From: Synergistaceae bacterium
GTDB lineage: Bacteria > Synergistota > Synergistia > Synergistales > Aminobacteriaceae
Length of the DNA stretch: 64,000 nucleotides
Reading direction: 5' to 3'
Assembly (NCBI GenBank): GCA_018436725.1
Contig: JAHDKT010000026.1
Location: 1 to 64,000 of the forward strand
The notes under the pieces were generated by a model. It made no database searches and was not told where the DNA came from. It saw only the letters and a list, made by a program, of their open reading frames with translations. The translations under genes and the position numbers were made by a program. Position 1 is the first letter of the stretch. Each line of letters starts with the position of its first letter. Positions 19,141-48,789 of the stretch are shown one piece after another.

Positions 19141-19141
19141 A

Positions 19142-22983: not shown

Positions 22984-22984
22984 C

Positions 22985-23270: not shown

Positions 23271-23490
23271 CTTGCACGGCAACAAGACGATGTCTCCCTC
23301 ATGCGGATGAAGGTTTCCCGGCTATACGGGCTGTAGAGGAGGATCTCTCTCGAGTAGGCGCTCTCGACGCCGTACTTGTCGCAGACAAACTCCGCTTCAC
23401 CCAAAATTCTTTTTCCATTCGCGTTCGAGCGCGGCCGCGCCGGAGGAAGCGCATCTGCACCTCCGGCGCGGCTTGTGGTCGTCCGCTCCT

Positions 23491-25520: not shown

Positions 25521-25958
25521 ATGTTCGAAACCGTTCTTGTCGTCCTGATCGGGTTGGCGGGCGGCGTCGCCGTGGGGCTTCAGTCACCGCTCGCCGGAGC
25601 TATGGGACAGAGAATAGGCCCGACCGCGAGCAGCCTGATCATCCATCTGGGGGGACTGTTTCTCTCTTTGCTCCTGCTCTGGTTCAGAGGGGGAGAACGG
25701 ATTCAGCACTGGCAGTCGCTGCCATGGTTCATGCTCGCAGCCGGGGGGCTGAGAGTCGTTCTTTTCCAGACGATCAACGTCACGCTCCCCCGCCTCGGGG
25801 CGACCGCCATGGTGACGTTGATCATCGCGGGGCAGCTGGTAACGGGCGTTCTGATCGATTCGCAGGGGTGGCTCGGAGTCGCGGCGCGCCCGCTCGAACC
25901 GGTCAGGGCGGCGGGCGTCCTCCTGCTGCTCGCAGGGGGCTGGTTGATCGTGCGATAG
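25521..25958 (+). CDS. small DMT-superfamily membrane protein (DUF606/YdcZ-like)
   Basis: 145 aa, four to five TM helices, RBS AAGGAGAG. A truncated paralog recurs at 44233-44603. Confidence 0.65.
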   Translation: MFETVLVVLIGLAGGVAVGLQSPLAGAMGQRIGPTASSLIIHLGGLFLSLLLLWFRGGERIQHWQSLPWFMLAAGGLRVVLFQTINVTLPRLGATAMVTLIIAGQLVTGVLIDSQGWLGVAARPLEPVRAAGVLLLLAGGWLIVR

Positions 25959-25973
25959 GGCGGGGAAGACGAC

Positions 25974-27596: not shown

Positions 27597-27776
27597 GAGC
27601 GCATATTTGTCTTTCAAGGACATTGTTCTCCTTCAACACATCGCTTATGATGTATTCTGCTTCGTGCAGCGTGTCGGTACGACCGCGGCACACAGAGAGC
27701 GAACGTGACGGGGCGCGCCCTTTCATTTTTCCGTCGAACGCGCTCCCCGGACTCATTTCGAGAAGGAGGGGTTGAG

Positions 27777-28982: not shown

Positions 28983-29040
28983 CGTGTAGTGAAAGGGAGT
29001 CCCCTGCGGGCTCCCTTTTCCGATGAAGGGGGGAAGGAAC

Positions 29041-30132: not shown

Positions 30133-30186
30133 CCTGTTCCACGGGACGACAGACATCCCGTTCTCTATAATCGAGGAGGTGGGGCA

Positions 30187-31428: not shown

Positions 31429-31533
31429 AAGGCGGTGATGGATGGCCGATACACGGTGCGACGAGAGAATCGACGATCGCTGTAGAGACTCCACGAGTGA
31501 ACGGCGCAAGCGCTTCGGAGAAGACGGAGCGGC

Positions 31534-32274
31534 ATGTCGTTCTGCGAAAGAGACAACGGAGAGGAAAGAGAGGTGTCTGTCTTGGATGAAGTGTTGAAGG
31601 TAGCAAACTCCATGGGGGCATGGATCACGGCCGCCCCCATAGTCATCATCGCTCTTGTGCAGGTGCTCCTGTACTACCGTCAGATCTACCACGCGGCGGA
31701 CGCGGTCAACCTGAAGCCCGAACAGCTCCGCAAAGCGTTCCACACCGGCATGGTCACGTCCATCGGGCCCGTGGTGGCTATTTTCATCATCATGGTCGGA
31801 CTGATGTCCGTCATAGGCGCGCCCATGGCGTGGATGCGCCTGTCGGTCATCGGCGCGGCGCCCACGGAGTTGACCGCGGCCACGCTCGGCGCGGACGCTA
31901 TGGGAGTGAAGTTCGGCGGGGAAGGGTACAACCTTCAGGTCATGGCCGTCTCCTGGTGGACGATGGCGATCAACGGCGTGGGCTGGCTGCTCCTCGTCGG
32001 CCTCTTCGCCCACAAGCTGGAGGACGTGCGCGAGAAGGTCGGCGGCGGCGATACGAAGTGGCTGGGCATTCTCTCGGTCGCGGCCATGATCGGCGTCTTC
32101 GGCTACCTGAACAGCAGGAATCTCACCAAAATCAGCGGCCCGTTCGTCGCGGCGGTCGTCGGCGCCCTCTCCATGGTCGTCCTGCTCCAGGTCGCGAAGA
32201 AGATGCCCAAGATCAAGGAGTACACTCTCGGCATAGCCATGCTCGTCGGCATGTTCGCCGCGATGTTCTACTAG
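31534..32274 (+). CDS. integral membrane protein (unknown; first of a pair)
   Basis: Hydrophobic multi-helix protein. Exact start uncertain (ATG 31534 or downstream TTG/ATG). Confidence 0.45.
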   Translation: MSFCERDNGEEREVSVLDEVLKVANSMGAWITAAPIVIIALVQVLLYYRQIYHAADAVNLKPEQLRKAFHTGMVTSIGPVVAIFIIMVGLMSVIGAPMAWMRLSVIGAAPTELTAATLGADAMGVKFGGEGYNLQVMAVSWWTMAINGVGWLLLVGLFAHKLEDVREKVGGGDTKWLGILSVAAMIGVFGYLNSRNLTKISGPFVAAVVGALSMVVLLQVAKKMPKIKEYTLGIAMLVGMFAAMFY

Positions 32275-32284
32275 AGAAGGAGAG

Positions 32285-32971
32285 GTGACTGAAATGGCAG
32301 CAGAGCAGATCAACGAACAGAAGTACCACGAAGTATGGACGACGCCGGTGATCAAGATCGGCGTGATCACCATGCTCCTGGCCTCGGGCCTGAGCTTCAT
32401 TCCCCTGATCTACCTGTACATGGTCCACGGCGTCCTTCCCCCCTTCGCGCAGGCGATGACGGCATGGGTGCTGGTCGCGTCGGTCTTCGGCGCTTTCTAC
32501 GTCGTCGAGCCGATATCCTACTACCCCATCCTGGGGTTGGCGGGGACATACATCTCCTTCCTCAGCGGCAACATCTCGAACCTCCGGCTCCCCTGTTCCG
32601 CCATGGCGCAGGAGGTCGTGGGCGTCGAAGAGGGAACCAAGCAGGCCGAGATCATCGGCACCATGGGCATCATCGGCTCGGTGGTGGTGAACCTCGTGGG
32701 CGTCACCCTCGCGGCGTTCGTCGGCACGTGGCTCATCGGCCTCTTCCCGCAGTTCGTGGCCGACGCCTTCAGACAGTACACCGCTCCGGCGATCTTCGGC
32801 GCGGTCTTCGGCCAGTTCGCCATGCGGCAGCCGAAACTGGCTCCGTTCGCCCTCGCCATTCCGATGACGCTGCTCTACTTCAAGATGCCCATCTGGCTCG
32901 TCATCCTTGCGGCGGTCTTCGGAACCATCGCGATCTCCAGAATTTTCTACAAAATGAAGATCATCCACTAA
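32285..32971 (+). CDS. integral membrane protein (unknown; second of a pair)
   Basis: 228 aa, multi-pass. Separated from the preceding gene by 10 nt. Probably a two-subunit transporter associated with the amidohydrolase cluster. Confidence 0.45.
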   Translation: MTEMAAEQINEQKYHEVWTTPVIKIGVITMLLASGLSFIPLIYLYMVHGVLPPFAQAMTAWVLVASVFGAFYVVEPISYYPILGLAGTYISFLSGNISNLRLPCSAMAQEVVGVEEGTKQAEIIGTMGIIGSVVVNLVGVTLAAFVGTWLIGLFPQFVADAFRQYTAPAIFGAVFGQFAMRQPKLAPFALAIPMTLLYFKMPIWLVILAAVFGTIAISRIFYKMKIIH

Positions 32972-33221
32972 AGCGCAGGGGAAGCTTCACGACACGCACG
33001 CACCGGGGAACACGCGTCGAGGCGAGCACATGCTCTCCTCGACGCGTGTTTTCGGCGGTTCCATCGCTCCATTGATATCAGGTAGACTTATCGTCCCTCT
33101 TCGCCTTGTCCCGGACGGTAAGCAAGAGGAGAGAGGAAGAGTTTTGCCGTTATGCAGAACTGTGCATAACGGCGATTCCTTTGTCCGTATCGGCCGGCAC
33201 GGACTGCCCCTTTTCAAGACT

Positions 33222-33251
33222 GATCAAAACGCGGCGCGTTGCGCGCCGCGT
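33222..33251 (-). terminator. terminator downstream of the MCP gene
   Basis: gcggcgcg-ttg-cgcgccgc hairpin followed by gttttgat on the minus strand. Confidence 0.4.
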
Positions 33252-33287
33252 TCGCCGTCGTCATCCTCGCGCTCTCTCAGCGCTTCT

Positions 33288-35294
33288 TCAACGCCGGACC
33301 TTGCTCTCCTGCGTCACTTTGAAGCGCGCGACCGCCTGCTGCAACATTTCGCCCAGGTTCACAAGTTCTTCCGAAGCCGCCGCGATCGCCTCCACTACCT
33401 TGCTCTGCTCCTGCATCGAACGGTTCACTCCGCCGACCTGCTCCGCGATCTCGACGCTCGACTTCGACACGCCGTCCATGCCCGCCGTCATCTCCTCCGC
33501 GCTCGCCGATTGCTCCTCCACCGTCGCCGCTATGGTCTGGATGTTCTCCGTCACGTTGTTCATCCGCTTCACAACGTCGCGTATGACTCCGCTCGTCTCG
33601 GAGGCCTTCTTTACGAGTTCCTGGAGGATCTTCGACGACCCCTCGGAGTCCTTCAGCGCGCTCTCCGTCCGCGAGATGATCTCCCCTATCAGCTTCCCGA
33701 CCTCGCCCGCCGCCCGGTTCGACTCCTCCGCCAGCTTGCGGACCTCTTCGGCGACGACTGCGAATCCGCGCCCGGCCTCCCCTGCGCGCGCGGCCTCGAT
33801 CGCCGCGTTCAACGCCAGCAGGTTCGTCTGGTCGGCGATCTGCGTAATAGTAACCACGAATCCGGAAATGTTCTTCACCGTCCCGGAAAGATTCGCCACC
33901 GCGCTTCCGACCTGCTCGCCCGCCTTCGCCGTCTTCGTGATCATGACGGCCATCTCCTCGACCGAGTCGCCGCCCTTCTGCGCGGCCTCGGAAACCGCAA
34001 CGGCGCCTTCGCCCGCCTCGGACGCCGCCTGCGCCGCCGCCTGCGCGCCGGAGGCGACTTCCTCGACGCCCGCGTTCGTCTCCTCGACCGCCGCGGCCGC
34101 GTTCTCGGTCTGCGCGCTCGTCTTCTCCGTGATCGCCAGCACTTCCTCTATAGCGGCCGTCGACTCCTCGGCGGCTGCGCTCAGATCCTCCGCCTTGGCC
34201 AGCACGTGCTGCGCCGTCTCAAGAATCTCGCGGATGGAGCCGGAGACGAGCGTGATCATCGAATTGACAGACCCCACCAGGAGGTTGATCTCTTTCATGC
34301 CGCTTTTCAGTTCGACAGTCGAGGTCAGGTCGCCTTTTGAGACTGCGTCCATCTTCTCGGCGATGATCTTGACCGGCTTGGCGATGCTTTTCGCCACCCA
34401 GAGCGAAATCAGCACCACGACGAGCGCGATCACCGCCACGGAGATCCAGATGGCATTCCGGATAGCCCGCACCGGCGCAAGAAACTCCTGAATCGGCGTG
34501 GTGACGGCGGCGAGCCACCCCGTGCCGTGGACGGGCGCGTACGCGTTCATCTGGTCTCTACCGTTGAAGAAATACTCAATCCTTCCGGCTCTGCCCGCAA
34601 GACCGTCGCGCATGGCGTTCGCCAGCTCCGAGGCGACTCGCTCGCTCTCGACCGTCAGGCTGAGCTTGCCCAGCAGATCGACCACCGGATGAGCGACGAG
34701 CACGCCGGACTTGTCGATGAGATAGGCGTACCCGCTCCGCCCCCAGACGAGAGAGGATATCTCCTTGGAGATCGTCTCCAAGGACTCCGACGCCACAAGC
34801 ACCCCGACCACTTTCCCGTCGACGACGATGGGAGAAGCGTAGAAAACCGTCATCGCTCCCGTAAGCCTGTGAACGACCGGTTCAGAGATTACCGACCTTT
34901 TCTCCTTGACCGCACGGATGAAGTATTCTCTGTCTTTGATATTTATTTCCTGAGGGCCGAGTCGAACATCGTTGATGGCGCCGTCAAGGGTTGCGACGAA
35001 AATATTCCCAAAATTATACTGATCGTACAGCGGAAGGAGAGACGGCTGCTGTTCCGCCCAGTTCATCGACCGAACGACATGTCGCTCCGCCTGCGTCGTT
35101 AAAATAATAGACCGCTCGCGAAGATAGGCGTCCACCTTCTCGGAAAGGCCCAAGGCGAGCGCGTCACCCTCCTTCCATGCCGCATCGATGATCGCCGTCT
35201 GCGATCTGTTCATGGCGATCAGGCCGACGACGGCCACCGCCGAAAGCGAAACGACAAGAAATATCCCGATGAGTCTACCACGAAGCGTATTCAT
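33288..35294 (-). CDS. methyl-accepting chemotaxis protein with periplasmic dCache-type sensor
   Basis: Start at MNTLRGRL with RBS AAGGAGG. TM, about 270-aa periplasmic domain, TM, HAMP, then Ala/Glu-rich MCP signalling domain with the highly conserved hairpin region. Confidence 0.9.
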
Positions 35295-35955
35295 ATCGTA
35301 CCCCTCCTTTTCGGAATCAGGCTTGTGAAAGAGCGTTCCCGTCACGCCGTTCTTCTTTGCGCAGACTCCGCTGAGTTTCGAGTCCACATCCCCTTCTCTC
35401 CTAGACGATTCTCATCGTTTCCGCCTTTCAGCGATCCTAACCGAGAACGGATCGCCTATAACGACAAACCCGACGTCCTTTCGACGTTGAGCGGGGCGGC
35501 GATATTCTATTCATAGCGAGTCCAAAGGATCATCGGAGCATTAGTATGCGCTCTAAGGGAGGAAGAAACATCGAAAAGACCTACAGTTCTTCAACTGGAA
35601 AACTTTACAGTTGACAATTCAGCAACTTTCCTTGAAAATCCGAATGCGACAATGGCGCAGTTCCGCAGGATATGGATCGGGCGCCGCTCTCGCTCGCGAA
35701 CCCGCTTCCCGAGAAAATCCCGATCGTCTTTCGGCGAAAGGAGCGGAGATAGTCGGATTGCGGACCTCCTTAGGGCCGGGAGTAAGCAGATCGCCCGTAG
35801 TGAAGGCGTCGCCGGGATTCAAGAAAGGATTCGCTTACGTCAAGGAAGCACTCGCAGATTCAGGGGCAAACTGCGAGGCCGCGTTTTTCGCCGGAGGAAC
35901 GACCTCTCCTCTTTCTTGATCGGCGTCGTAAGGGCAATGCGAACAAATCCTGGCA

Positions 35956-36468
35956 TCAAAAGACACAGTTCGCCTCTTTCAGCCTGGATAGCAGTCGTGC
36001 GGCGAGCAGACCGACCGCAAGACCGGTTGCTGCGCCCGCGGCAAGCAGCACGGGAAGGTAGACGAGAAGGGGGCGGATATCCCCCACCAGAAGGGCAACG
36101 ACCGAAAACTGCCCGATATTGAACGCGAACGCTCCTCCGGCGCTCACCCCGGCTATCGAAAATGCGTCGATACACCGGAGCGTCGCCATGCTTCCGACGG
36201 CGATCAGCCCGCCTCCCAGGCTACATAGAAAGGCGAAGACGTTTCCCGTGAAGAGAAGCGTCAGGAGCACTCTGCAAAGAACGACAAGAAGAGCGGCCCT
36301 CGCCCCTAAAAGGTAGAGGGCCGTGACTACGAAAATGTTCGCGAAGCCGAGCCTGACACCCGGAAGCGGCAGCGACGGGAGCAGATTCTCAAGCATTCCG
36401 GTCGCGAAGGCGAGCGCCGTCAGCAAACCGACGATCCCCGCGCGACCACCCCTAATCGGAGGGCGCAT
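35956..36468 (-). CDS. Gx transporter family membrane protein (heptaprenyl-diphosphate-synthase component-I-like)
   Basis: 170 aa, five TM segments, glycine-rich. Overlaps the upstream NusG-II gene. This pairing is typical. Confidence 0.65.
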   Translation of the reverse strand: MRPPIRGGRAGIVGLLTALAFATGMLENLLPSLPLPGVRLGFANIFVVTALYLLGARAALLVVLCRVLLTLLFTGNVFAFLCSLGGGLIAVGSMATLRCIDAFSIAGVSAGGAFAFNIGQFSVVALLVGDIRPLLVYLPVLLAAGAATGLAVGLLAARLLSRLKEANCVF

Positions 36469-36862
36469 CGAACTCCGTCTCCCCGCTTCCGATGACCTTC
36501 AGGACGAGCCTGTTCGGAAGACAGACTGTCGCCTCCCCAGGATGCTTGATCCAGCCCGTCCGCACGCAGCGGCCGTCGGGGCAGTCGGAACGAAGCATCC
36601 GGATTCGTCCGCCTTCGCTACGGATGACGACATCCCCCCCGGCGCTGCCGGTCAGCGAGTATTCGGACGGAGTTCCTCCCTTGGAAAGCGGGAAAGTATG
36701 CACCACCTCGCCGCCAACCGTCAGAATCGCCGAACGCTCTCCATTTCCCGGCGCAAGACTCCTCCATGCGAAGAGCACCAGAGCAAACAGCAGGAGTCCA
36801 CCGACAAGCAGGAGATCTCTTAAATCAATACTTTCCACATCGGAGAGAGATAGCCGGACCAT
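36452..36862 (-). CDS. NusG domain II-containing (DUF1312) membrane-anchored protein
   Basis: N-terminal TM, then a beta-rich domain with a CxxxxC pair (DCPDGRC). Start at 36862 or 36883. Confidence 0.6.
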   Translation of the reverse strand: MVRLSLSDVESIDLRDLLLVGGLLLFALVLFAWRSLAPGNGERSAILTVGGEVVHTFPLSKGGTPSEYSLTGSAGGDVVIRSEGGRIRMLRSDCPDGRCVRTGWIKHPGEATVCLPNRLVLKVIGSGETEFDAPSD

Positions 36863-36921
36863 TGCGTTAACCACCATACCCAACTAAGCATCGGGCGACA
36901 CCCGAAGACCTCATATTCATA

Positions 36922-38307
36922 TCACTTGGTATATATTTCGAGCAATTTATGCCTCTCGCTATTATAGAGCTTTGAAATAAGCTCGCCGAAGAGAAAAGAC
37001 ACGTTTACACCCTGTCCGCCGTTATAACCGAGTGCATAGAAGATGTTTTTATGCCTTCCGGTGATCCCGATCCTTTCGCTCTTGCTCCTGGTTTCGCAAA
37101 TAATACCGTTCCACGTGTTTTCAATACGGATACCTTTGAGCGATGGATAGAGTTCGGAGAGTCGTTTAGCGATCTGGGCCTCGATCGTCCGGAGATCGCC
37201 GGGATACAGGAGACTTTCGTCGTCGTTGTACTCCACGCTGCCGCCGCCGATGACGATGCGACGGTCTTTGGTGATGATCATGTGGAAGGTGGCGTCCGAA
37301 TCCGTACCGGCGTATTGGTCGTCGTACCATGCAATGTGATCTTTCCAACCAAGGCTCCGGTATTGTTCCTCGCTCAACGGCGCGGTAACGGCTACTTGAG
37401 TATGGGCGGGCTCGATGTCATTCGCCAGAAAGTTCAAGGTAGCCGCAGCGTAGGCGTTGGCAGCGATAACAATACTTTTCGCCTTGACCTTGTATCTATT
37501 GCCTTTGGCGACAACCGGAAGCTCGATGATCTTCCCCTCGTTATAACCCCACACAGTACTGTTCTCGTAGATGACAACCCCGGCATCTTCGGCCAGTTTC
37601 TTTAAAGCGGCCACCAGCTTGCCCGCGTTCACCATACCGCCGTTGGGATCGTAGACTGCCCCGAGAAGTCCGGGGGATCCCAGCATACCGATTGCTTTCT
37701 CCCGCTCCCAGAATTCGATAGGCATGCCCATTTCCCGGGCAGCGGCTGCGTATTGCCGAAAATCGGCCAGGTTCTCCCGATCGAAGATACCCAGGCTTTG
37801 GCCGTTGAGTACAAACTCTGGATCTATGCCGGAGGATTCGGCCAGAGCCTTAAAGCGTTTCATGCCGGCGACCGTGATGTCATAGATCTCCTTATGATGA
37901 GCCTTGTTCGCTCCCATCACGAAGCCACCCTCGCTGTAAGTCTGGGCAAGAACAAGACCTCCGTGACGTCCGGAGGCTCCGCTGCCGACTCGCCCGGCCT
38001 CGAAGATCACCACTTCAAGCGCGGGATTGGATTTCTTGATGTGATAGGCAGCGGACAGCCCCGTATAGCCGCCACCGATAACCGCCACATCGACGCTCAG
38101 GTTTTTATCCAAAGCGGGATTGACCCGAGGAAGAAACTGCGCCCAGTAACTTTCGTTTTTATCGAAAATCATCGACTCGTCGAGATCGACGCCCTCCGCG
38201 AAACCTCCTGAAGCCAGCAGGATTAAAAAAAGAAGCGACAAGAACGCCTGCAAGCGATGCTTTCGCAAAATTTCGGACGCCCTAAATAGCATGCCGATAG
38301 TTCGCAT
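36922..38307 (-). CDS. secreted FAD-dependent oxidoreductase (DAO family)
   Basis: Signal peptide, VAVIGGGYTGLSAAYHI dinucleotide-binding motif, about 460 aa. Low-GC patch. The ORF could extend to 38406. Confidence 0.7.
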   Translation of the reverse strand: MRTIGMLFRASEILRKHRLQAFLSLLFLILLASGGFAEGVDLDESMIFDKNESYWAQFLPRVNPALDKNLSVDVAVIGGGYTGLSAAYHIKKSNPALEVVIFEAGRVGSGASGRHGGLVLAQTYSEGGFVMGANKAHHKEIYDITVAGMKRFKALAESSGIDPEFVLNGQSLGIFDRENLADFRQYAAAAREMGMPIEFWEREKAIGMLGSPGLLGAVYDPNGGMVNAGKLVAALKKLAEDAGVVIYENSTVWGYNEGKIIELPVVAKGNRYKVKAKSIVIAANAYAAATLNFLANDIEPAHTQVAVTAPLSEEQYRSLGWKDHIAWYDDQYAGTDSDATFHMIITKDRRIVIGGGSVEYNDDESLLYPGDLRTIEAQIAKRLSELYPSLKGIRIENTWNGIICETRSKSERIGITGRHKNIFYALGYNGGQGVNVSFLFGELISKLYNSERHKLLEIYTK

Positions 38308-38485
38308 TGGAATACCCCCCTTTTTTCCGCATAGCCGAAATCCGACGGCAACCAAGTCTATGTGACGTTTTGAAGCCCTCCTGGATACTTGTTTTTCTAT
38401 CGTCATGCAATAGCAGATCAGACTATCGACACATTATGAAGGCTTTGCATGTTTGCGTCTTTGCGAGTTTCTTATTTAATTTTCA

Positions 38486-39059
38486 TTATTTTGCAATTAT
38501 AGCGTTTTTGGGAAAGAAGTCAAGGTTTATAACATTGATGTAGTTCCGCTTGCTGCCCGCCGCCTCTACGTTCATCGGGCATCGGGCCAGGAGCGAGCTG
38601 AGCAGTTCGTTCCTGGCGGACTGTCGCTGGGAGATGCTTTCGATAGTCGTAGTGCTCGGGATCGTTCCGGGAGAGAAGAGTTCCAGCCTGTCCGCAAAAA
38701 CGTGAAGTCGAATCTTGGAGCCGTAGATCGAGTAGTCCCGGCGAGCGACAGCGTTGGTCACCGCCGCGAAGACTGCGTTCATCGAAAACTGCGGCGTTTC
38801 GATTCTATTGGGAGTTTTTTACGGCGAGCCCCCGCGTGTTTCGTTCGACGAATTTGCAAGCCTCCCTTATTTGAACGTCCAGCGGGCCGACGACGTCCTT
38901 CGCGTCCAGTTGGTACGCGGCGTTCCGCTCGGCGCCGGGATAGCATACGGCTTGAATGAGGGCGCTGGAAAGGTACGATTCCGGCGCGTCCGAAGCCATG
39001 AGAATACCGCTCACCGTCGCTCGAATGCTTTCGTTTTCGTCTTTGGCGATCAGCCTCAT
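38486..39059 (-). pseudogene. frameshifted remnant of an ATP-binding (HATPase_c_4/AlbA_2-type) putative regulator gene
   Basis: Two adjacent ORFs in different frames. The second contains AVTNAVARRDYSIYGSKIRLHVFADRLELFSPG, the hallmark HATPase_c_4 motif (..NAlvHRDY...i.v..f.drieiiSPG). Confidence 0.5.
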
Positions 39060-39501
39060 CTTCCCTAGAAAATCCCGATCCGCCTTCGGTGAAAGCAGCT
39101 ATTCGGGCTTTTTTCATTCTCGTACATCATCGACCTCCGTTGTCGCGTCTTCTCGCGTCTTCTCGCGCCTTCTCGCGTACATTCATTTCGAGCTGTCGTC
39201 GGGACTCCATCCTCAGGCTTATGCCTTGTCGTTGCGTGTCGTTGCGGATGGCGGGGCGGACGTAATCCCGTCCGAACCACAATATGCAGACTCCCGACGC
39301 TAGTCAAACGTTTTTTCGTGCCCCGCCCGGCCTCCCGAGGCGCACACCCACCACCTTTTTCCCGCCTGCGAAATTCGAGTATGGACAAAATTTATAATAT
39401 GCCGTACTATCTTTGCAAAGCATCGGCCGCTAATTGAACATAATATTCTGTCCAATAAGAGCCGTTTTGTGTATATTCTAATATTTTAGGAGGGTGTCGT
39501 T

Positions 39502-40095
39502 ATGAGTCTTGAATTCGACGAGAAGCTGTCGCATCTGGAGAAGCCGTCTCGGGCGGACGTGCCCGACGAGCATATGAAGATCTACGAGGAAAACGTGGCG
39601 TCCATGGAGAAAAACTGGGGGTTCATCAACAACCTCTTCAAGGTGCTCCCCCTCAATTCGTCCCAGTACATGGGCTTCCTCCATTTCAAGGCCTCTCTTT
39701 TCACCCCCGAGACCTGCTACCTGAGCAACGCCGACAAGGAGATGATCGGCCTGGTCGTTTCCTCCACCAACGGCTGCAACTACTGCCTGACCACCCACAG
39801 CGACTACCTCCGCGGCATGACGAACGACCCCGTGTGGGTCGACCAGCTCACCTACAACTACCGCGCGGCCAAGCTGACGGAAAAACAGCGCGCCCTCTGC
39901 GACTACGCCTATTTCGTCACCGCCTATCCCAGAGAGATCACCACGGAACAGGTGGACAAGCTCCGGGAGGCCGGCTTCAACGACCACGAGATTCTCGAGG
40001 CCGCCTACGTGGCGGGTTTTTTCAACTACACGAACCGCTGGGTGAGCACCATCGAGCCTCTGGCGAACCCGGGACACTACAGCCACAACCGCTGA
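39502..40095 (+). CDS. carboxymuconolactone decarboxylase-family / peroxidase-related (AhpD-like) protein
   Basis: 197 aa. Tandem CMD-like helical repeats with CxxC-like NGCNYCLTTH motif. Confidence 0.7.
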   Translation: MSLEFDEKLSHLEKPSRADVPDEHMKIYEENVASMEKNWGFINNLFKVLPLNSSQYMGFLHFKASLFTPETCYLSNADKEMIGLVVSSTNGCNYCLTTHSDYLRGMTNDPVWVDQLTYNYRAAKLTEKQRALCDYAYFVTAYPREITTEQVDKLREAGFNDHEILEAAYVAGFFNYTNRWVSTIEPLANPGHYSHNR

Positions 40096-40107
40096 CGGGC
40101 GGACATC

Positions 40108-42051
40108 ATGGAGTACAAACGCCTGTTTGAAAAGGGAAGAATCGGCAATCTGACACTCCGGAACCGCAGCGTCATGAGCCCCATGGCGACCGATTTCGCC
40201 GACCACGACGGAACCGTCTCCATGAAGCTGCTCCGGTACTACCAGGAGCGCGCCAGAGGCGGCATCGGCCTGATCATCAACGAGTACACCGGAGTGGACC
40301 ACGTGGACAGCGTTCCGTCGCCCCATAACCTTCGCGCGTCGGCCGACTGGCACATCGCGGGGCTGGAAAGCCTCGTGGATGCCGTGCACGCCTACGGGGC
40401 GCTCATCTTCGCCCAGATTCACCACGGCGGCTCCACGTCGAAGCCCGCGCTGAGCGGCAGGCAGTCGCTGAGCGCGAGCGACGTGCCCGCCGCCCCCGGA
40501 GCGCCCGCGCCCAGGGCCATGACCATCGAGGAGATCAAGGCGGTTCAAAAAAAATTCACGGACGCCGCCGTGCGCTGCAAAAAGGCGGGGTACGACGGCG
40601 TAGAGCTTCACGGCGCCCACTCCTATCTCATCGGGCAGTTCTTCAGCCCGTACTACAACAAGCGAACCGACGAGTACGGCGGCGGCTTCGAAAACCGCAT
40701 GCGGTTCACGGGAGAGATCATCGACGGCATCCGGGCCGCCCTCGGCAGCGGATTTCCCCTTTCGGTGAGGATAAGCGGCGACGAGATGACGCCCGGGGTT
40801 CCCGGCGCCCTGACCCTCGAGGACGGACTTCGGATAGGGAAATACCTGGAAGAGAAGGGAATCGACGTCCTGAACGTGAGCAACGGAAGCGCGCTCAACG
40901 GCAACGCGAACTGCGACCCCTACTCCTACGCGCCGGGCTGGAAGAAGCATGTGGCGAAGGCCTTCAAGCAGGCCCTGAAGATTCCCATAATCGCGACGAA
41001 CACCATCAAGGATCCCGCCTTCGCCGAATCGCTTCTCGAAGAAGGGGTGTGCGACTTCGTGGGCCTCGGTCGCTCGCAGTTCGCCGATCCCGACTTCATG
41101 AAGAAGGCGAAGGAGGGGCGGGAGGACGAAATCCGCCAGTGCATCGGCTGCATGGTCTGTCGGGAGCGCCTTCTGGCGAAGGGGCAGACGGCGGTGTGCG
41201 CCGTCAATCCGCGCATGGGGCGGGAGTATCTTTATCCCGACTACCCGAGGAACGGCTCGGGGAGGACGGTCTGCGTCGCCGGCGGAGGACCGGGAGGCAT
41301 GGAGGCGGCCAGGGTGCTGGCAGAACGGGGATTCGCCGTGACGCTGATCGAGAAGCGTCCGGACCTCGGGGGCGCCCTCCTCCTGGCGGACAAACCGCCC
41401 CACAAGGAGCTGATCACCCGTCTCATACGCACGATGAAAAGAGAACTCGAAGTTCTGGGGGTGAACGTGGTCTGCGGAACGGAGGCCACTCCCGAACGTG
41501 TGAAAAAGTATGCGCCCGAGGCCGTCTTCATCGCCACTGGCGCGGTTCCACTGATCCCGAAGATTCCGGGAGTCGATCTCCCGAACGTGTGCACCGCAGA
41601 CGACGTGGTGGAGGGAAAGGCGCGCCCCGCAGGGCGCGTGGCTGTGATCGGCACCGGAATGACGGGGCTCGAGACCGCCGAGATGCTCGGAGCGGCGGGG
41701 TGCGATCTGCTGCTCGTGGAGATGCTCCCCGATATCGGGCCGGGAATCTTCCCCGTGATCAGGAACGATATTCTGGGCCGCGTCATGGCCATGAAGCCCG
41801 AGGTATACGCCGGACACAAGCTCGTGGAAATCCTTCCCGACGGCATCCGCATGACCCGCGCCGACGGCGCGGTCGTGGAGGCCGATATCGACGCCGTGGT
41901 GCTCTCCCTCGGCATCCGCCCGACCAGGAACGTCGTGGAAGCGTTCGAGGCGGCGTTCGAGCGCGTTATCCCCGTGGCGGACGCCGCCACGCCCGGCAGA
42001 ATCTACGAGGCCACGAAGGACGCCTTCGACAAGGCGTATCATTTCGAGTAA
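40108..42051 (+). CDS. Old-Yellow-Enzyme-family FMN oxidoreductase fused to FAD/NAD(P)-binding domain (2-enoate reductase / 2,4-dienoyl-CoA-reductase-like)
   Basis: 647 aa. N-terminal OYE TIM barrel (HGAHSYLIGQFFSP). 4Fe-4S Cys cluster (CIGCMVCRE...C). C-terminal GGGPGG dinucleotide-binding domain. Confidence 0.85.
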   Translation: MEYKRLFEKGRIGNLTLRNRSVMSPMATDFADHDGTVSMKLLRYYQERARGGIGLIINEYTGVDHVDSVPSPHNLRASADWHIAGLESLVDAVHAYGALIFAQIHHGGSTSKPALSGRQSLSASDVPAAPGAPAPRAMTIEEIKAVQKKFTDAAVRCKKAGYDGVELHGAHSYLIGQFFSPYYNKRTDEYGGGFENRMRFTGEIIDGIRAALGSGFPLSVRISGDEMTPGVPGALTLEDGLRIGKYLEEKGIDVLNVSNGSALNGNANCDPYSYAPGWKKHVAKAFKQALKIPIIATNTIKDPAFAESLLEEGVCDFVGLGRSQFADPDFMKKAKEGREDEIRQCIGCMVCRERLLAKGQTAVCAVNPRMGREYLYPDYPRNGSGRTVCVAGGGPGGMEAARVLAERGFAVTLIEKRPDLGGALLLADKPPHKELITRLIRTMKRELEVLGVNVVCGTEATPERVKKYAPEAVFIATGAVPLIPKIPGVDLPNVCTADDVVEGKARPAGRVAVIGTGMTGLETAEMLGAAGCDLLLVEMLPDIGPGIFPVIRNDILGRVMAMKPEVYAGHKLVEILPDGIRMTRADGAVVEADIDAVVLSLGIRPTRNVVEAFEAAFERVIPVADAATPGRIYEATKDAFDKAYHFE

Positions 42052-42093
42052 GCGGGAATTCCCCCGCCTGATAGCAAAGCAACGATCAACAAT

Positions 42094-42399
42094 ATGGACG
42101 CCGAGGGGAACGCCCATTACCCGGGGTGGGATCTCGAAACGGTGAAATGGCTGTGCGCGGAGCGGAGCATCGGCTCCATCGGCCACGAAACGCCGGACAC
42201 GAACCCCGCCTGCCGACAGCGCGACATCGGCTTCGCCGCCGAGGACTACATCCTCCGGCAGGACAAAACCCAGGTCGAGCTGCTGTGCAACCTCGACAAA
42301 GTACCGCCCGCAGGAGCGATCATCTTCTGCATGTTCCCCAAACTGAAGGGCGGCACGGGCTTCCCGGCCAGATGCTTCGCCGTCTGCCCGGCTGAATGA
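42094..42399 (+). pseudogene. C-terminal fragment of a cyclase-family (kynurenine-formamidase-like) protein
   Basis: The 101-aa ORF corresponds to only the last third of cyclase proteins (..IGSIGHETPDT......PKLKGGTGFPARCFAV). The N-terminal His-rich metal site is missing. The upstream gene ends 42 nt before. Confidence 0.45.
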
Positions 42400-42449
42400 T
42401 CCTCTACGGTGCGGGGCGCTTCTCCTCCGTGCCGACCGCAAAAAAACAG

Positions 42450-42492
42450 GGGCGCTCCCGCTTGCGACGGAACGCCCCTGTTCATTGAACAC
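42450..42492 (-). terminator. intrinsic terminator downstream of the SLH/OmpM-like gene
   Basis: aaaaaaacaggggcg...cgcccctgtt. GC stem followed by TTTTTTT on the minus strand. Confidence 0.55.
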
Positions 42493-42514
42493 CGAAACGT
42501 TTTTCTACCTCGAG

Positions 42515-43987
42515 TTAAAAAGATATGGATGTACGCAGCCGAATCATATGGTCGTCCTTCTGTGTCCATAAAGCGGCATTATCGAATTCGATCTTGTCGT
42601 ACAACAACTCGAACTGCAGGGAGGGCGAGTATAAATAACGAACGCCCAACATCCAGTTCGTGTGGTCCGCCATACCGTCTGCGGAAACGTCGTATTTCAC
42701 GTCGAGATAACGGAAAAAAGTAACCCATCGCTCGGACCACTCCTGTTCCGCAGCGATCAAAAGATAGTTCATCCCGTTGTTTCGCGTAGGATCGTCGATG
42801 CCGAAAGCAGGACTCGCCGCTGAGTCTTCCGCGATTTGCTCAGCGTAGGCGAGGCCGTTGATATGCGTCATGAACGTAGGATCGAGCTTGGCATACTCGA
42901 TCCACAAGCTCGAGTACTTCAACGTATCCCGCCCGATATCGAGAATCGCCTTGTACGCCTTGGGGGAGTCGTCCAGTCCGTTGTTCGCGGCCGCCCAATC
43001 ATACTTGTTCGCCGCGTACATACCACGCAATGCAATATCCGGGGTGAAATTCACTCCGAAGTCGATCCAGTATGATTGTACTTTTTCCAGTTCCGCATTG
43101 GAACCAAGCTTGAACTCCTTTACGAGTCCGTTGACGCTCATAGAAAGTTCTTCGTTGAAATCCAACCGCATTCGCGCACCGTAGATATCCTGTTCGCCTT
43201 CTTCGCTAGGATCGTCGTAATGCCCCCACAAAAGCGCGAACGCTCCCATTCCGAACTGCTTGTCGAACACCATGCCTTCGATGTTGTCGTTAAGAAACCA
43301 CGCATCGTCGCCATAGGCGTCGTTATACAGGCCTTCTTCCCAAACGATGCCATCCGTACGACCGAACTTGGCTGTAATCTCCCAAGGAAAATTCACGGTG
43401 ATGAAATTCTCTTTCCAATAAAGTCCTGATGAATTTCTTCTGGCAAGAAGGGCGCTGTAGGTTACTTTTTCGTCGATGCGCCGTACCAATTGAATCCAAT
43501 TGTCGTCGAAGCGCATAGAAAGGTCTTGTTTACCTTCTTCCGTATACGAACCGCCCTCGAGGTCGGCCCATTTCCAGTCCATTCGGAAAGAACCGCTGAT
43601 CGACCAACCCCCTAATTTTTCTTCGAGAACGGCAAGACGTCCGTCCACTTTATTCACCTTTACACCGAGCGCATCAAGCTCGTCCTTGAACTCGACGACC
43701 AGCCTTTTCAGCATTTCGACATCCTGTCGATCCGCTTTTTCCGCATCCATCGCAGCGAGAACCCTGGCCGTCGCGGAAGCGGCCTCATAACGAGTCATCG
43801 GTTGAGCGCCCTTATAGGTTCCATCGGGATAACCGGACAAAAATCCCTTTGCCGCAAGCTGGGCAATGGAGTCGTAAGCCCAATGCCCGTTCGGTACATC
43901 CATAAAAGGATTGGTTGCCGCGAGAGAAGGAAAGGAGAAAAACACGACGCTTAAAAATATCGCACCGAAGAGAAATCTCTTATTCAT
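42515..43987 (-). CDS. S-layer-homology (SLH) domain outer-membrane protein, OmpM-like porin
   Basis: Start at MNKRFLFGAIFL (signal peptide). N-terminal SLH motif (FMDVPNGHWAYDSIAQLAAKGFLSGYPDGTYKG), coiled-coil linker, then roughly 350-aa beta-barrel-like region with alternating aromatic residues. Lower-GC. Confidence 0.8.
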   Translation of the reverse strand: MNKRFLFGAIFLSVVFFSFPSLAATNPFMDVPNGHWAYDSIAQLAAKGFLSGYPDGTYKGAQPMTRYEAASATARVLAAMDAEKADRQDVEMLKRLVVEFKDELDALGVKVNKVDGRLAVLEEKLGGWSISGSFRMDWKWADLEGGSYTEEGKQDLSMRFDDNWIQLVRRIDEKVTYSALLARRNSSGLYWKENFITVNFPWEITAKFGRTDGIVWEEGLYNDAYGDDAWFLNDNIEGMVFDKQFGMGAFALLWGHYDDPSEEGEQDIYGARMRLDFNEELSMSVNGLVKEFKLGSNAELEKVQSYWIDFGVNFTPDIALRGMYAANKYDWAAANNGLDDSPKAYKAILDIGRDTLKYSSLWIEYAKLDPTFMTHINGLAYAEQIAEDSAASPAFGIDDPTRNNGMNYLLIAAEQEWSERWVTFFRYLDVKYDVSADGMADHTNWMLGVRYLYSPSLQFELLYDKIEFDNAALWTQKDDHMIRLRTSISF

Positions 43988-44150
43988 CGATTTTCCATCT
44001 TCTTTCTTGAAATAATCTTTAATGTTTACAAACCAACCATACGCCACGCCTCGAATCGCAGGAGACGTATCCCGTGCGCGGCAGAATTCCCCAAGGAATA
44101 CCCCCCTTCGCCCTTTTCAACTACGCGTCATCCAAACATGTACATTTTGC

Positions 44151-44208
44151 TGGTATTCTGCGCGCCGGTTAGTTAGATAAATCTAACTAACCGGCGCGCA
44201 GAATACCA
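44151..44208. repeat. perfect 58-nt palindrome (28-nt arms, 2-nt centre)
   Basis: tggtattctgcgcgccggttagttagat aa atctaactaaccggcgcgcagaatacca, exact reverse complement arms. Confidence 0.9.
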
Positions 44209-44232
44209 CAACTTTTGCCATCCGTCAATCAT

Positions 44233-44603
44233 TTCTTATCAGGGCGCTGGGACAGCGGATCGGCCCCACCGCGAGCAGCACGACCCTGCACCTCTCCGGG
44301 TTGCTGCTCTCGCTGTTTCTGCTCTGGTGCGGAGGGGGAGAACGGATTCAGGAGTGGTATACGGCGCCGTGGTACATGCTTGCCGCAGGATGCCTGGGGG
44401 TGGCGCTGTTCCGGACGATCAACGTGACGCTCCCCTGTCTGGGCGCGACGGCCATGGTGACCCTGATCATCGTCGGGCAGCTGTTGACGGGCGTCCTGAT
44501 CGACGCGCAGGGGTGGCTGGGGACGGCGGCGCGACCGTTCGACATGTTCAGGGCGGCGGGCGTGCTTCTGTTGCTCGCCGGAGGCTGGCTGATCGTCCGG
44601 TAG
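44233..44603 (+). pseudogene. 5'-truncated paralog of the DMT membrane-protein gene at 25521-25958
   Basis: Alignable from codon about 26 onward (QRIGPTASS...GGWLIVR). Identical C-terminus. No start codon or RBS at the truncation point. Confidence 0.6.
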
Positions 44604-44664
44604 AATTTTTTCGGCAGCGTTTATAACGAGACATCAAGAGGTATAGAACAAAGGAGATGGTACG

Positions 44665-45300
44665 ATGGCGGACTTTCGCGCTTCGGCGCAGCGGCTTCAT
44701 CAGCGGATAACAACATGGCGGCGGGATCTGCACGGGATTCCCGAGACGGGAGTGGACACCCCGCAGACGGAGGCGTATATCTGCGCCGAGCTGGACAAAA
44801 TAGGCGTCTCCTACCGCAAGGGGCTCGGCAAACACGGCGTCGTCGCGCTCGTCGAGGGAAAGCATAAAAACAGGGTCTTCGCGATCCGCGCGGACATGGA
44901 CGGCCTTCCCATCAAGGAAGAGACGGGGCTTCCCTTCGCCTCGCAGAACGGTTGCATGCACGCATGCGGGCACGATGCGCACGCGGCGATGGGACTGGCC
45001 TCGGTGAAGCTGCTGCACGACGTCCGGGAGAAGATCGAGGGCTCGGTGCTCGTCGTCTTCCAGCCCGGCGAAGAGGGGTGCACCGACGGCCCCGGCGGAG
45101 CGAAGCGGATGCTCGACGACGGCGCGTTCGACGATCCGAAACCGGACGCGATGGTCGGCCTGCATACCGGCTGCAACGAGGCGAAGGGACAGACGTGGCC
45201 GCACCACAACAGCCGCTTCGACATCGACGAGGACGTCCTCTGGATCGGACCGGCCGTCATGGCGACGATGGCCTTCGACTGGCTGAAGAAACAGGCGTGA
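44665..45300 (+). pseudogene. internally deleted paralog of the M20D amidohydrolase gene at 27777-28982
   Basis: 211 aa versus 401 aa. Colinear through ...DAMVGLHTG, then jumps in-frame to CNEAKGQTWPHHNSRFDIDEDVLWIGPAVMATMA. The deletion removes the lid domain and one metal ligand region. Confidence 0.65.
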
Positions 45301-45428
45301 CGGTTTTCCGGAAAGAGTCGTGCGCTTTTCGAGCGTCCACACTGGAATGAAAGAAGCCGGGAACCACCCCCTCGCGGACTCTCGGCTTCTTTTTTCAACG
45401 TTCTTTCAAGCCTTGCAACGAAGGCGGT

Positions 45429-48758: not shown

Positions 48759-48789
48759 ACGCACCACCCCTTTTTTCTTCCGAACATAG

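What the first reader, a model, noticed from the sequence alone, without database searches (positions are those of the whole stretch)
44233..45300. Truncated second copy of the DMT-transporter / M20D amidohydrolase region, with the PucR regulator and the amidohydrolase lid removed in-frame
44233-44603 matches 25596-25958 and 44665-45300 matches 27777-28982. The copy lacks the first 25 codons of the DMT gene and the whole PucR gene (1.6 kb). It carries a 570-nt in-frame deletion inside the amidohydrolase (LHTG joined to CNEAKGQ). The retained amidohydrolase fragment has a proper ATG and an intact frame, so a shortened protein could still be made. Together with the dinJ case and the 9277 repeat, this window shows a recurring pattern of duplicate-then-precisely-delete events.
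Basis: seen in the sequence. Interest (0 to 1): 0.55.

Follow-up and report, generated by a model that had tools for sequence, protein, structure and literature searches.

The report
Decaying remnant of displaced gene pair
The short second copy is real. It is not a fresh duplicate trimmed by neat deletions, but the broken, neutrally decaying leftover of a separate transporter–amidohydrolase gene pair that is still intact at the same chromosomal spot in related Synergistales bacteria, which makes it an ordinary pseudogene.

Summary
Window 44248-44603 matches 25603-25958 at 77.5% nt. 44666-45175 matches 27778-28287 at 87.8%. 45167-45298 matches 28849-28980 at 96.2%. There is a 570-nt in-frame gap and an open 211-aa ORF.

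Copy B is not derived from copy A. It is 97-100% identical to an intact "B-type" pair found in related Synergistales genomes: DMT_YdcZ (145 aa), a 61-nt spacer, then M20D (401 aa), with no PucR. That pair has the same right flank as copy B (98-100% identity). So PucR was never deleted from this copy.

The DMT 5' end was lost where a highly variable left-hand segment, which carries copy A, abuts the pair. The breakpoint is at 44241/44242. The 570-nt deletion lies between 6-nt CCGGCT repeats. It removes aa 171-360, which is the lid plus about 55 aa of catalytic core.

Substitutions on the remnant lineage fit neutrality (N:S 12:4, expected 3:1). Intact lineages give 17:46. A sister strain has added a nonsense codon, a 15-nt deletion and a 180-nt deletion.

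Other strains have the same truncated DMT but a full-length M20D whose centre is A-type. This is either gene conversion or an assembly chimera.

Verdict: a displaced, decaying pseudogene pair of low interest.

The parts
44242..44603 (+). 3' fragment (codons ~26-145 plus stop) of a B-type DMT_YdcZ transporter gene; a pseudogene lacking the first transmembrane helix, the start codon and the promoter
   Evidence: Pfam DMT_YdcZ, profile positions 22-140 of 140. 96.9% nt identity to the intact 145-aa gene of L085, 77% to window copy A. An in-frame stop lies at 44184, and there is no ATG/GTG/TTG before TTG 44301. Sister strain L003 has TGG>TAG at 44514-44516.
44604..44664 (+). Native 61-nt B-type spacer between DMT and M20D, with an AAGGAG ribosome-binding site at 44651-44656
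   Evidence: All intact B-type loci have the same 61-nt spacing. It is unrelated to the DMT-PucR and PucR-M20D spacers of copy A. L003 has a 15-nt deletion and clustered substitutions here.
44665..45300 (+). B-type M20D amidohydrolase gene with an internal 570-nt in-frame deletion (aa 171-360 of 401). It forms an open 211-aa ORF and is most likely a pseudogene
   Evidence: Pfam Peptidase_M20, profile positions 1-98 of 206 only, with no M20_dimer domain. 99.0% and 100% nt identity to the two retained parts of the intact L085 gene. The exact protein is P0001 in public assemblies. L003 has a further 180-nt deletion, equivalent to window 44759-44938.
45167..45172 (+). Deletion junction: a single CCGGCT left from two 6-nt direct repeats that flank the 570 nt in the intact gene (gene nt 503-508 and 1073-1078)
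   Evidence: Base-by-base comparison with the intact L085 gene and with copy A.
44209..44241 (.). 33 nt between the palindrome and the breakpoint. It has no counterpart in intact B-type loci or at copy A. The illegitimate joint lies at its right end (44241/44242)
   Evidence: Multiple alignment of the upstream regions. BLAST against all fetched loci hits only window-type strains. A minus-strand promoter-like site at 44228-44200 points toward the porin gene.
44151..44208 (.). 58-nt palindrome (28-nt perfect arms with a 2-nt centre) next to the breakpoint; function unknown
   Evidence: (dG -35.9 kcal/mol, z -12.7). The centre is AA in window-type strains and TT in L115/L117.
45352..45395 (+). 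Hairpin followed by a T-run downstream of the M20D remnant; the native 3' end of the B-type pair, facing the convergent 419-aa gene
   Evidence: Read directly from the sequence (AGAAGCCGGGA ... TCTCGGCTTC TTTTTT). It is conserved in L003 and L085. Terminator function is inferred.
25521..25958 (+). Copy A: intact DMT_YdcZ gene (145 aa)
   Evidence: Pfam match to profile positions 1-140 of 140. A promoter-like GCATGGTATGATA motif at 25456 is shared with B-type loci.
25974..27596 (+). Copy A: PucR-family regulator (540 aa), present only in the A-type locus
   Evidence: Pfam PucR + GGDEF_2 + HTH_30. It is present in all A-type loci and absent from all B-type loci.
27777..28982 (+). Copy A: intact M20D amidohydrolase (401 aa, GTG start)
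   Evidence: Pfam Peptidase_M20 + M20_dimer. PDB relatives are YxeP 1YSJ, ILL2 1XMB and Sapep 4EWT. AF2 model pLDDT 93.8.
19864..44241 (.). Variable block that separates the shared left flank from the remnant. 19.9-25.5 kb holds divergent alleles of genes that L085 also has. 25.9-44.2 kb holds genes absent from that position in L085: PucR, M20D_A, M42, M20/M28, DUF5058, MCP, OxFMN and an SLH porin
   Evidence: Identity to L085 is 92-99% left of 19.9 kb, 70-92% within 19.9-25.4 kb, and 98-100% right of 44242.

Best explanation
Window 44242-45300 is the non-functional, decaying remnant of a resident 'B-type' two-gene unit. Related Synergistales genomes carry this unit intact at the same chromosomal position: DMT_YdcZ transporter, 61-nt spacer, M20D amidohydrolase, never with PucR.

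The DNA to the left of this pair is highly variable between strains. In the window's lineage it was replaced by a divergent block of about 24 kb. That block carries its own diverged version of the locus (copy A, with PucR) plus about 18 kb of extra genes. The right end of the block was joined illegitimately 76 nt inside the resident DMT gene. This removed the promoter, the start codon and the first transmembrane helix, and left the rest of the pair stranded downstream as a displaced allele.

The stranded genes have since decayed:
- A 570-nt deletion between 6-nt CCGGCT repeats (slippage or microhomology-mediated) removed the lid and part of the catalytic core of the M20D.
- One sister strain then added a nonsense codon, a 15-nt deletion and a 180-nt deletion.

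That the two ORF deletions are in frame is most simply chance (1/9).

Shown: B is a distinct allele type with intact orthologues; the breakpoint and the deletion junction; neutral substitution on the remnant lineage; further decay in a sister strain.

Inferred: the direction and mechanism of the replacement (one-sided homologous anchoring plus an illegitimate joint, i.e. homology-facilitated illegitimate recombination), and the lack of expression.

The confidence of 0.8 applies to 'a decaying remnant of a distinct B-type pair, not a trimmed duplicate of A'. The specific recombination mechanism on its own would rate about 0.5.
For: 1. B groups with intact B-type genes and not with A. Identities to L085 are 96.9% / 99.0% / 100%, against 77% / 88% / 96% to A. 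The 78/88/96 gradient holds for every B-type gene against A, so it is a property of the two allele types.
2. Intact B-type pairs exist: 145-aa DMT, 61-nt spacer, 401-aa M20D, no PucR. In L085, L086, L087, L091 and L093 they have the same right flank as the window (419-aa gene, TonB-dependent receptor, TonB/ExbBD) at 98-100% identity.
3. L085 is collinear with the window at 15364-25125 and 44242-52033 but lacks the DNA between them. Identity falls to 70-92% in 19.9-25.4 kb, next to copy A.
4. L085, L091/93 and L089 share homology only from 66 nt upstream of the DMT start rightwards. Their left contexts all differ.
5. DMT_A nt 1-76 is as diverged from B-type (80%) as the rest of the gene (78%). 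This rules out a simple insertion that split one gene.
6. Lineage-specific changes on the remnant are 12 nonsynonymous or nonsense against 4 synonymous. The neutral expectation is 3.0:1 (p=1.0). Intact lineages give 17:46 (p=1.7e-15 against neutrality). Fisher's test, remnant versus intact: p=0.0008.
7. Sister strain L003 (~98% identical) shares both junctions but adds TGG>TAG, loss of the DMT stop codon, a 15-nt deletion and a 180-nt deletion.
8. The deletion is flanked by an exact CCGGCT repeat.
9. There is no start codon for the DMT fragment and no plus-strand promoter-like site.
10. Precedent for displaced 3' fragments left by this kind of recombination: PMC5361080 and PMC3240628.
Against: - The donor of the left-hand block was not found. 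The porin's nearest relative outside the strain cluster is only 64% identical and sits in another context. The illegitimate joint therefore cannot be inspected for microhomology, and the direction of replacement is inferred only from identity profiles.
- The left region also differs by about 8% between L085 and L091/93. The window is therefore not uniquely the 'odd' haplotype.
- The M20D ORF remains open, with a good ribosome-binding site, in all strains. Both of its deletions are in frame, and all metal-ligand motifs are retained (CGHD, GEEG, GLH, HHN).
- AF2 models the 211-aa product confidently (pLDDT 89.9). That model is MSA-driven and says nothing about stability.
- Only 16 substitutions underlie the neutrality estimate.
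Confidence: 0.8

Rival explanations
1. One reading: copy A was recently duplicated within this genome, and the duplicate was then trimmed by precise deletions of the DMT 5' end, PucR and the lid.
For: The gene order (DMT then M20D) matches. The similarity is significant. The 570-nt gap is exactly in frame.
Against: B is 97-100% identical to intact B-type genes elsewhere and only 77-96% to A. dS between A and B is 0.17-0.73. No non-coding similarity exists. The PucR-less 61-nt spacer is native to B-type loci. The 5' truncation coincides with a strain-variable boundary.
Confidence: 0.03
2. A and B are ancient tandem paralogues that were both present in the ancestor, about 16-19 kb apart. L085-type genomes lost the A-containing segment. 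In the window lineage the redundant B copy decayed through a local deletion that removed its 5' end.
For: A and B share a promoter-like motif and leader. A and B have exchanged sequence: the C-terminal 96% identity and the L115 mosaic. The left region is variable in all strains.
Against: No genome was found with the porin segment next to an intact B pair. The genes left of A (the 539-aa M20, DJ-1 and the NAD-binding gene) are as diverged from L085's as A is from B. That fits an allelic block rather than a deletion in L085. L085's DMT has its own B-type 5' end and is not an A/B hybrid.
Confidence: 0.12
3. The 211-aa ORF is a functional, selected 'mini' M20 protein: a lid-less metal-binding catalytic core made from its own translation signals.
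For: The ORF is open, with an ATG and an AAGGAG site. The invariant C101/H103, E136/E137 and H167 and the C-terminal HHN motif are retained. The AF2 model has pLDDT 89.9. Single-domain M28 aminopeptidases resemble the M20 catalytic domain (PMC6271292). The further deletion in L003 is also in frame.
Against: The deletion also removes about 55 aa of catalytic core, including the near-invariant E341/D342 and strand 352-357. Lid residues contribute to substrate binding in M20 enzymes (PMC6271292). The substitution pattern is neutral. L003 deletes 60 more codons, including the conserved RADxDxLP region. The upstream promoter region was lost.
Confidence: 0.04
4. The truncated copy is an assembly artefact: a collapse or chimera between two similar loci.
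For: A and B share exact stretches of at least 41 nt. Short-read contigs visibly break inside these genes. The L115/L117 mosaic could be such a chimera.
Against: Identical junctions appear in at least 8 assemblies from different samples and assemblers. These include a 660-kb contig that spans A through B. The remnant carries its own substitutions.
Confidence: 0.01

Closest known systems
Pseudogene remnants produced by bacterial deletional bias (gene decay after loss of function)
   Same: It is truncated relative to intact orthologues and has lost its start codon and promoter. Substitutions follow a neutral N:S ratio. Successive microhomology-flanked deletions and a nonsense codon appear in sister strains.
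   Different: One of the two fragments (M20D) still reads as an uninterrupted 211-aa ORF because both of its deletions are multiples of three. Gene callers therefore annotate it as a protein (P0001).
Displaced 'orphan' 3' fragments downstream of Rhs/CDI/T6SS effector loci, attributed to homology-facilitated illegitimate recombination (PMC5361080; mechanism defined in PMC3240628)
   Same: An incoming, diverged version of the locus lies upstream. The resident version lacks its 5' end and is shifted downstream. Homology is good on one side only, and the other joint lies inside a gene.
   Different: These are metabolic genes, not toxin/immunity modules. There is a single displaced copy, not an array. 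About 18 kb of unrelated genes lie between the incoming and displaced copies. The donor and the joint microhomology could not be examined. There is no sign that the orphan is retained for function.
M20D (ILR1/YxeP/HipO-type) amidohydrolases, e.g. B. subtilis YxeP 1YSJ, A. thaliana ILL2 1XMB, S. aureus Sapep 4EWT
   Same: Copy A and the intact B-type gene are full-length members: E=1e-67 to YxeP, with Peptidase_M20 plus M20_dimer domains. The remnant keeps the N-terminal 170 aa and the C-terminal 41 aa, including the metal-ligand motifs.
   Different: The remnant lacks aa 171-360: the whole lid/dimerisation domain and part of the catalytic domain.
Interparalogue gene conversion (ectopic homologous recombination between diverged copies)
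   Same: In L115/L117 the locus-B M20D carries a clean A-type tract of 611-803 nt, bounded by stretches where A and B are identical.
   Different: It is not established that the tract is biological rather than an assembly chimera. It is also unclear whether it overwrote an intact B gene or refilled the 570-nt deletion.

Membership tests
Recent intragenomic (segmental) duplication of copy A | The second copy's closest relative is the first copy in the same genome | tested here: not met
   B is 96.9-100% identical to intact B-type genes of other genomes and 77-96% to A.
Recent intragenomic (segmental) duplication of copy A | Similarity extends through non-coding DNA and is uniform along the copy | tested here: not met
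   Similarity stops at start and stop codons, and the spacers are unrelated. dS is 0.73, 0.41 and 0.17 in the three segments.
Pseudogene / decaying gene remnant | Truncated or disrupted relative to intact orthologues | tested here: met
   The DMT lacks nt 1-76 and any start codon. The M20D lacks 570 of 1206 nt compared with L085, L091, L093 and L089.
Pseudogene / decaying gene remnant | Relaxed selective constraint on the lineage | tested here: met
   N:S is 12:4 against a neutral expectation of 3.0. Intact lineages give 17:46. Fisher p=0.0008. The sample is small (16 changes).
Pseudogene / decaying gene remnant | Independent further disruptive mutations in close relatives | tested here: met
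   L003 has a nonsense codon, loss of the stop codon, a 15-nt deletion and a 180-nt deletion.
Pseudogene / decaying gene remnant | Not expressed or not functional | not testable with these tools
   Only indirect evidence: the promoter-like region was lost and no plus-strand promoter-like site was found.
M20D amidohydrolase (functional enzyme) | Complete Peptidase_M20 catalytic domain | tested here: not met
   The Pfam PF01546 match covers profile positions 1-98 of 206 only. Helices 311-325 and 343-347, strands 330-332 and 352-357, and E341/D342 are deleted.
M20D amidohydrolase (functional enzyme) | Lid/dimerisation domain (PF07687) | tested here: not met
   It is absent from the 211-aa product and present at aa 194-286 of copy A.
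M20D amidohydrolase (functional enzyme) | Metal-ligand motifs (Cys/His in CGHD, Glu in GEEG, His in GLH, C-terminal His) | tested here: met
   C101, H103, E136/E137 and H167 are invariant and retained, and the HHNSRF motif is retained. Assigning these residues as ligands rests on knowledge of the family, not on a test here.
DMT_YdcZ transporter (functional) | Full-length profile of about 140 aa with an initiation codon | tested here: not met
   Only profile positions 22-140 are covered. There is no ATG/GTG/TTG between the in-frame stop at 44184 and 44301.
Displaced allele created by homology-facilitated illegitimate recombination | An incoming homologous module upstream and a resident 3' fragment lacking its 5' end downstream | tested here: met
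   Copy A lies upstream and the B fragment lies downstream at the native right flank.
Displaced allele created by homology-facilitated illegitimate recombination | One-sided homologous anchor: a switch from high to low identity on one side only | tested here: inconclusive
   Identity to L085 drops at about 19.9 kb. However, the left region is also diverged between L085 and L091/93.
Displaced allele created by homology-facilitated illegitimate recombination | Microhomology between donor and recipient at the illegitimate joint | not testable with these tools
   The donor arrangement was not found.

The most novel reading that the evidence does not exclude
The displaced allele may not be simply dying. 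In strains L115/L117 a 611-803-nt tract copied from the incoming paralogue (copy A) spans exactly the region that is deleted in the window. That would mean the 570-nt deletion was refilled by paralogue-templated gene conversion, which restored a full-length M20D ORF at the remnant locus. The remnant would then be a pseudogene intermittently 'resurrected' by its replacement.
Probability: 0.2. Interest if true: 0.4.

Novelty: new member of a known kind. Interest (0 to 1): 0.2.

Why it matters
The main value is corrective.
- A 211-aa 'M20 peptidase' and a 75-aa 'DMT transporter' are being called as genes in public assemblies of this Synergistales lineage, but they are pseudogene fragments.
- What looks like 'duplication followed by precise deletions' is really two diverged versions of one locus placed side by side by recombination at a strain-variable boundary.
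- The locus gives a tidy natural series of gene decay: intact pair, then 5' truncation, then a 570-nt deletion, then a nonsense codon plus further deletions.
- It may also be an example of exchange between a displaced allele and its replacement. That could interest people studying recombination and pseudogene dynamics in uncultured anaerobes.
- No new type of system is involved.

Tried and rejected
- Genome-contig scan with M20D_A. The window's species is not among the representatives. The nearest Synergistales loci (L004, L005; 65-69% aa) have neither DMT nor PucR nearby, so they say nothing about ancestry.
- Metagenome scan with the SLH porin and a protein search with the porin. The aim was to find the native context of the block's right end and of the palindrome. 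Only distant relatives (<=64%) in unrelated contexts turned up. The donor remains unknown.
- More distant DMT_YdcZ relatives (P0123, P0124). They are not linked to M20D or PucR, so they cannot show whether A gained PucR or B lost it.
- 'Island inserted into one DMT gene'. Rejected because DMT_A's first 76 nt are as diverged from B-type as the rest of the gene.
- 'L085 is an A×B recombinant deletion'. Rejected because its DMT 5' end is B-type.
- AF2 model of the 211-aa product. It is confident but uninformative about stability, so it was not used as evidence either way.
- Rooting L115 relative to the deletion-bearing strains. Three sites support each of the two trees, so this is unresolved.
- Rfam scan. 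No RNA family lies in or near the remnant.
- Other long palindromes in the window. Their sequences are unrelated, so there is no repeat family.
Full report
**Observation**

A BLAST of 43.5-46.2 kb against the whole window gives three collinear plus-strand matches and nothing else below E=0.1:
- 44248-44603 matches 25603-25958 (77.5%).
- 44666-45175 matches 27778-28287 (87.8%).
- 45167-45298 matches 28849-28980 (96.2%).

Copy A consists of DMT_YdcZ (25521-25958), a PucR-family regulator (25974-27596) and an M20D amidohydrolase (27777-28982, GTG start).

Copy B consists of a DMT fragment, a 61-nt spacer and a 211-aa ORF (44665-45300). The ORF has an ATG and an AAGGAG site. In it, GLHTG is joined to CNEAKGQ across a 570-nt gap.

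Similarity stops at the start and stop codons. The spacer and the 3' flank of B resemble nothing at A.

**Copy B is not a recent duplicate of A**

Nei-Gojobori estimates between A and B:

| Segment | dS | dN/dS |
|---|---|---|
| DMT | 0.73 | 0.21 |
| M20D N-terminal part | 0.41 | 0.16 |
| M20D C-terminal part | 0.17 | 0.11 |

The divergence is old and accumulated under purifying selection.

A protein search with the DMT fragment found a full-length 145-aa protein that is 97% identical to it (P0121 cluster). Its contigs carry an intact pair: DMT, a 61-nt spacer, then a 401-aa M20D, with no PucR.

In L085, L086, L087, L091 and L093 this pair is followed by the same 419-aa gene, TonB-dependent receptor and TonB/ExbBD genes as copy B in the window. 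Identity there is 98-100%.

Per segment, window B is 96.9% / 99.0% / 100% identical to L085, against 77% / 88% / 96% to A. Every B-type gene shows the same 78/88/96 gradient against A.

B is therefore the local representative of a separate allele type. Its native state lacks PucR, so PucR was not deleted from this copy.

**Where the 5' end went**

L085 is collinear with the window at 15364-25125 and at 44242-52033 but lacks what lies between. Identity to L085 along the window runs as follows:

| Window region | Identity to L085 |
|---|---|
| Left of ~19.9 kb | 92-99% |
| 19.9-25.4 kb (DJ-1, NAD-binding gene, 539-aa M20; the genes left of copy A) | 70-92% |
| Right of 44242 | 98-100% |

L085, L091/93 and L089 share homology with each other only from 66 nt upstream of the DMT start rightwards. 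Their left contexts all differ. The pair therefore abuts a strain-variable region.

In the window lineage the boundary lies 76 nt inside the DMT gene, at 44241/44242. There is an in-frame stop at 44184 and no ATG/GTG/TTG before 44301. The conserved promoter-like GCATGGTATGATA motif is gone.

DMT_A's first 76 nt are as diverged from B-type (80%) as the rest of the gene (78%). This rules out a simple insertion that split one gene. L085's DMT 5' end is B-type, so L085 is not an A×B recombinant.

The simplest reading is that a divergent block of about 24 kb replaced the left side. That block includes the A version of the locus plus about 18 kb of extra genes. Its right end was joined illegitimately inside the resident DMT. 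This resembles the displaced 'orphan' fragments attributed to homology-facilitated illegitimate recombination (PMC5361080, PMC3240628).

The donor could not be found. The mechanism and its direction are therefore inferred.

**The 570-nt deletion**

Compared with the intact L085 gene, the deletion removes gene nt 509-1078 or an equivalent window. It lies between exact CCGGCT repeats at nt 503-508 and 1073-1078, leaving one copy at window 45167-45172. This is a typical slippage or microhomology deletion.

It removes aa 171-360. Pfam places M20_dimer at aa 194-286 of A. The AF2 model of A (pLDDT 93.8) places the lid at about 176-305.

The deletion therefore also removes:
- helices 311-325 and 343-347;
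- strands 330-332 and 352-357;
- the near-invariant E341/D342.

'Lid removed' understates the damage. The metal-ligand motifs are retained.

An AF2 model of the 211-aa product is confident (pLDDT 89.9). It merely reproduces the parent fold from the alignment, so I do not take it as evidence of stability. Lid residues take part in substrate binding in M20 enzymes (PMC6271292).

**Evidence of decay**

Sister strain L003 has ~98% identical flanks and lies on a 660-kb contig that also carries copy A. It shares the palindrome, the breakpoint and the CCGGCT junction.

It has in addition:
- TGG>TAG in the DMT fragment;
- loss of the DMT stop codon;
- a 15-nt deletion and clustered substitutions in the spacer;
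- a further 180-nt deletion in the M20D, flanked by CGCGGA/CGCAGA, leaving 151 aa (P0002).

I polarised substitutions with the intact B-type genes. The remnant lineage has 4 synonymous changes, 11 nonsynonymous changes and 1 nonsense change. The neutral expectation is 3.0:1 (binomial p=1.0). The intact lineages have 46 synonymous and 17 nonsynonymous changes (p=1.7e-15 against neutrality). Fisher's test, remnant versus intact, gives p=0.0008.

No plus-strand promoter-like site lies near the remnant.

Identical junctions occur in at least 8 assemblies. This excludes an artefact.

**An unexpected twist**

L115 (GCA_032941855.1) and L117 (Logan SRR25941765) have the same porin-palindrome-truncated-DMT junction but a full-length 401-aa M20D at locus B.

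Across 61 sites that are fixed differently in A-type and B-type genes, this gene reads:

| Gene nt | Type | Informative sites |
|---|---|---|
| 1-375 | B | 22 |
| 417-1027 | A | 37 |
| 1180-1194 | B | 2 |

The A tract is within 1 nt of circulating A alleles. It spans the whole region that is deleted in the window.

Three readings are possible:
- A-to-B gene conversion on a still-intact B gene.
- Conversion that refilled the deletion.
- A chimeric assembly, since the boundaries fall in stretches where A and B are identical.

Rooted site patterns split 3:3 between L115 lying outside the deletion-bearing clade and L115 grouping with L003. I cannot decide between these readings. L115/L117 therefore cannot be treated as a simple intermediate stage.

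**Comparison and verdict**

Copy A and the intact B-type genes are ordinary M20D amidohydrolases (YxeP, ILL2 and Sapep relatives). They are paired with a YdcZ-type DMT protein.

Copy B fails the tests for a functional member of either family. It meets those for a decaying pseudogene.

The 'recurring duplicate-then-delete pattern' is better read as recurring remnants of diverged alleles. The other composite repeat (9301-9681 against 4192-4308 and 5433-5701) is likewise only 71-85% identical.

The finding is real but ordinary. It is a new instance of a well-known kind and of low interest. The only mildly novel possibility is paralogue-templated repair of the deletion.

Noticed in passing
window 44151-44208; L115:2776-2833; L117:42-99: A 58-nt palindrome (28-nt perfect arms, 2-nt centre, dG -35.9 kcal/mol, z -12.7) sits 33 nt left of the breakpoint. 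Its outer ends read 5'-TG...CA-3', and TTTTGC occurs on both sides. The 2-nt centre is AA in window-type strains and TT in L115/L117, i.e. the spacer is flipped. No other copy exists in the window or in the fetched loci. Its function or origin is unknown; candidates are an operator, a miniature element or a break-repair footprint.
   Followed up: partly
L115:3290-4495 and L117:556-1761 (equivalent to window 44665-45300): The full-length M20D at the remnant locus is a clean B/A/B mosaic, with an A-type tract between nt 376-417 and nt 1027-1180. This is either interparalogue gene conversion (possibly refilling the 570-nt deletion) or an assembly chimera.
   Followed up: partly
window 9301-9681 versus 4192-4308 and 5433-5701: A second composite remnant. 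It joins a fragment of the C-terminus of a GNAT-type toxin gene (next to a DUF1778-like antitoxin at ~3640-3903) to a fragment of the 5' end or upstream region of the minus-strand 370-aa gene, with about 1.1 kb missing between them. Identity is only 85% and 71.5%, so it is old. An AT-rich palindrome lies at 9196-9237 beside it.
   Followed up: partly
window 36583-39251: A 2.67-kb stretch absent from sister strains L003 and L114/L096. It holds a DAO-family FAD oxidoreductase (36922-38406, minus strand) and lower-GC DNA with what look like degraded gene fragments (38.5-39.1 kb).
   Followed up: partly
window 48885-49045 (-) and 53673-53736 (-): A full cobalamin riboswitch (97 bits) lies upstream of the TonB-dependent receptor gene. 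The right flank of the remnant is therefore a B12-regulated uptake operon, and the 788-aa ORF listed for the receptor is over-extended (other assemblies aa). A second, partial cobalamin riboswitch hit lies at 53.7 kb.
   Followed up: no
L089/L090/L092/L094 versus L091/L093 versus L085: The same DMT-M20D pair occurs in at least three different left contexts and two different right contexts. The DMT protein (P0216) is identical in L089 and L091. No integrase or transposase is in sight. L089's 3' flank matches copy A's 3' flank up to window 29017. The pair behaves as a recombining cassette.
   Followed up: partly
P0005 (Synergistetes bacterium HGW-Synergistetes-2, 2.2-kb contig); window ~29088-29115: An A-like M20D N-terminus (110 aa) is fused to 'IFCSRPETP', which is the minus-strand reading of the 5' end of the neighbouring M42 gene. 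This is another rearrangement or a chimeric contig at this locus.
   Followed up: no
window 21866-23414 and 22072-22260: These stretches are absent from L085 and from sister strain L095 respectively. A minus-strand ORF at 22000-22812 has a weak UvrD_C-like hit below Pfam's threshold. This is more strain-variable DNA left of copy A.
   Followed up: no
window 54043-55178 versus 55539-56665: Tandem paralogous genes at 67% nt identity; not examined.
   Followed up: no
window 25456-25468; L085 ~7935-8000: A promoter-like motif, GCATGGTATGATA, and a leader are conserved upstream of the DMT gene in both A-type and B-type loci, although the surrounding intergenic DNA is diverged.
   Followed up: no
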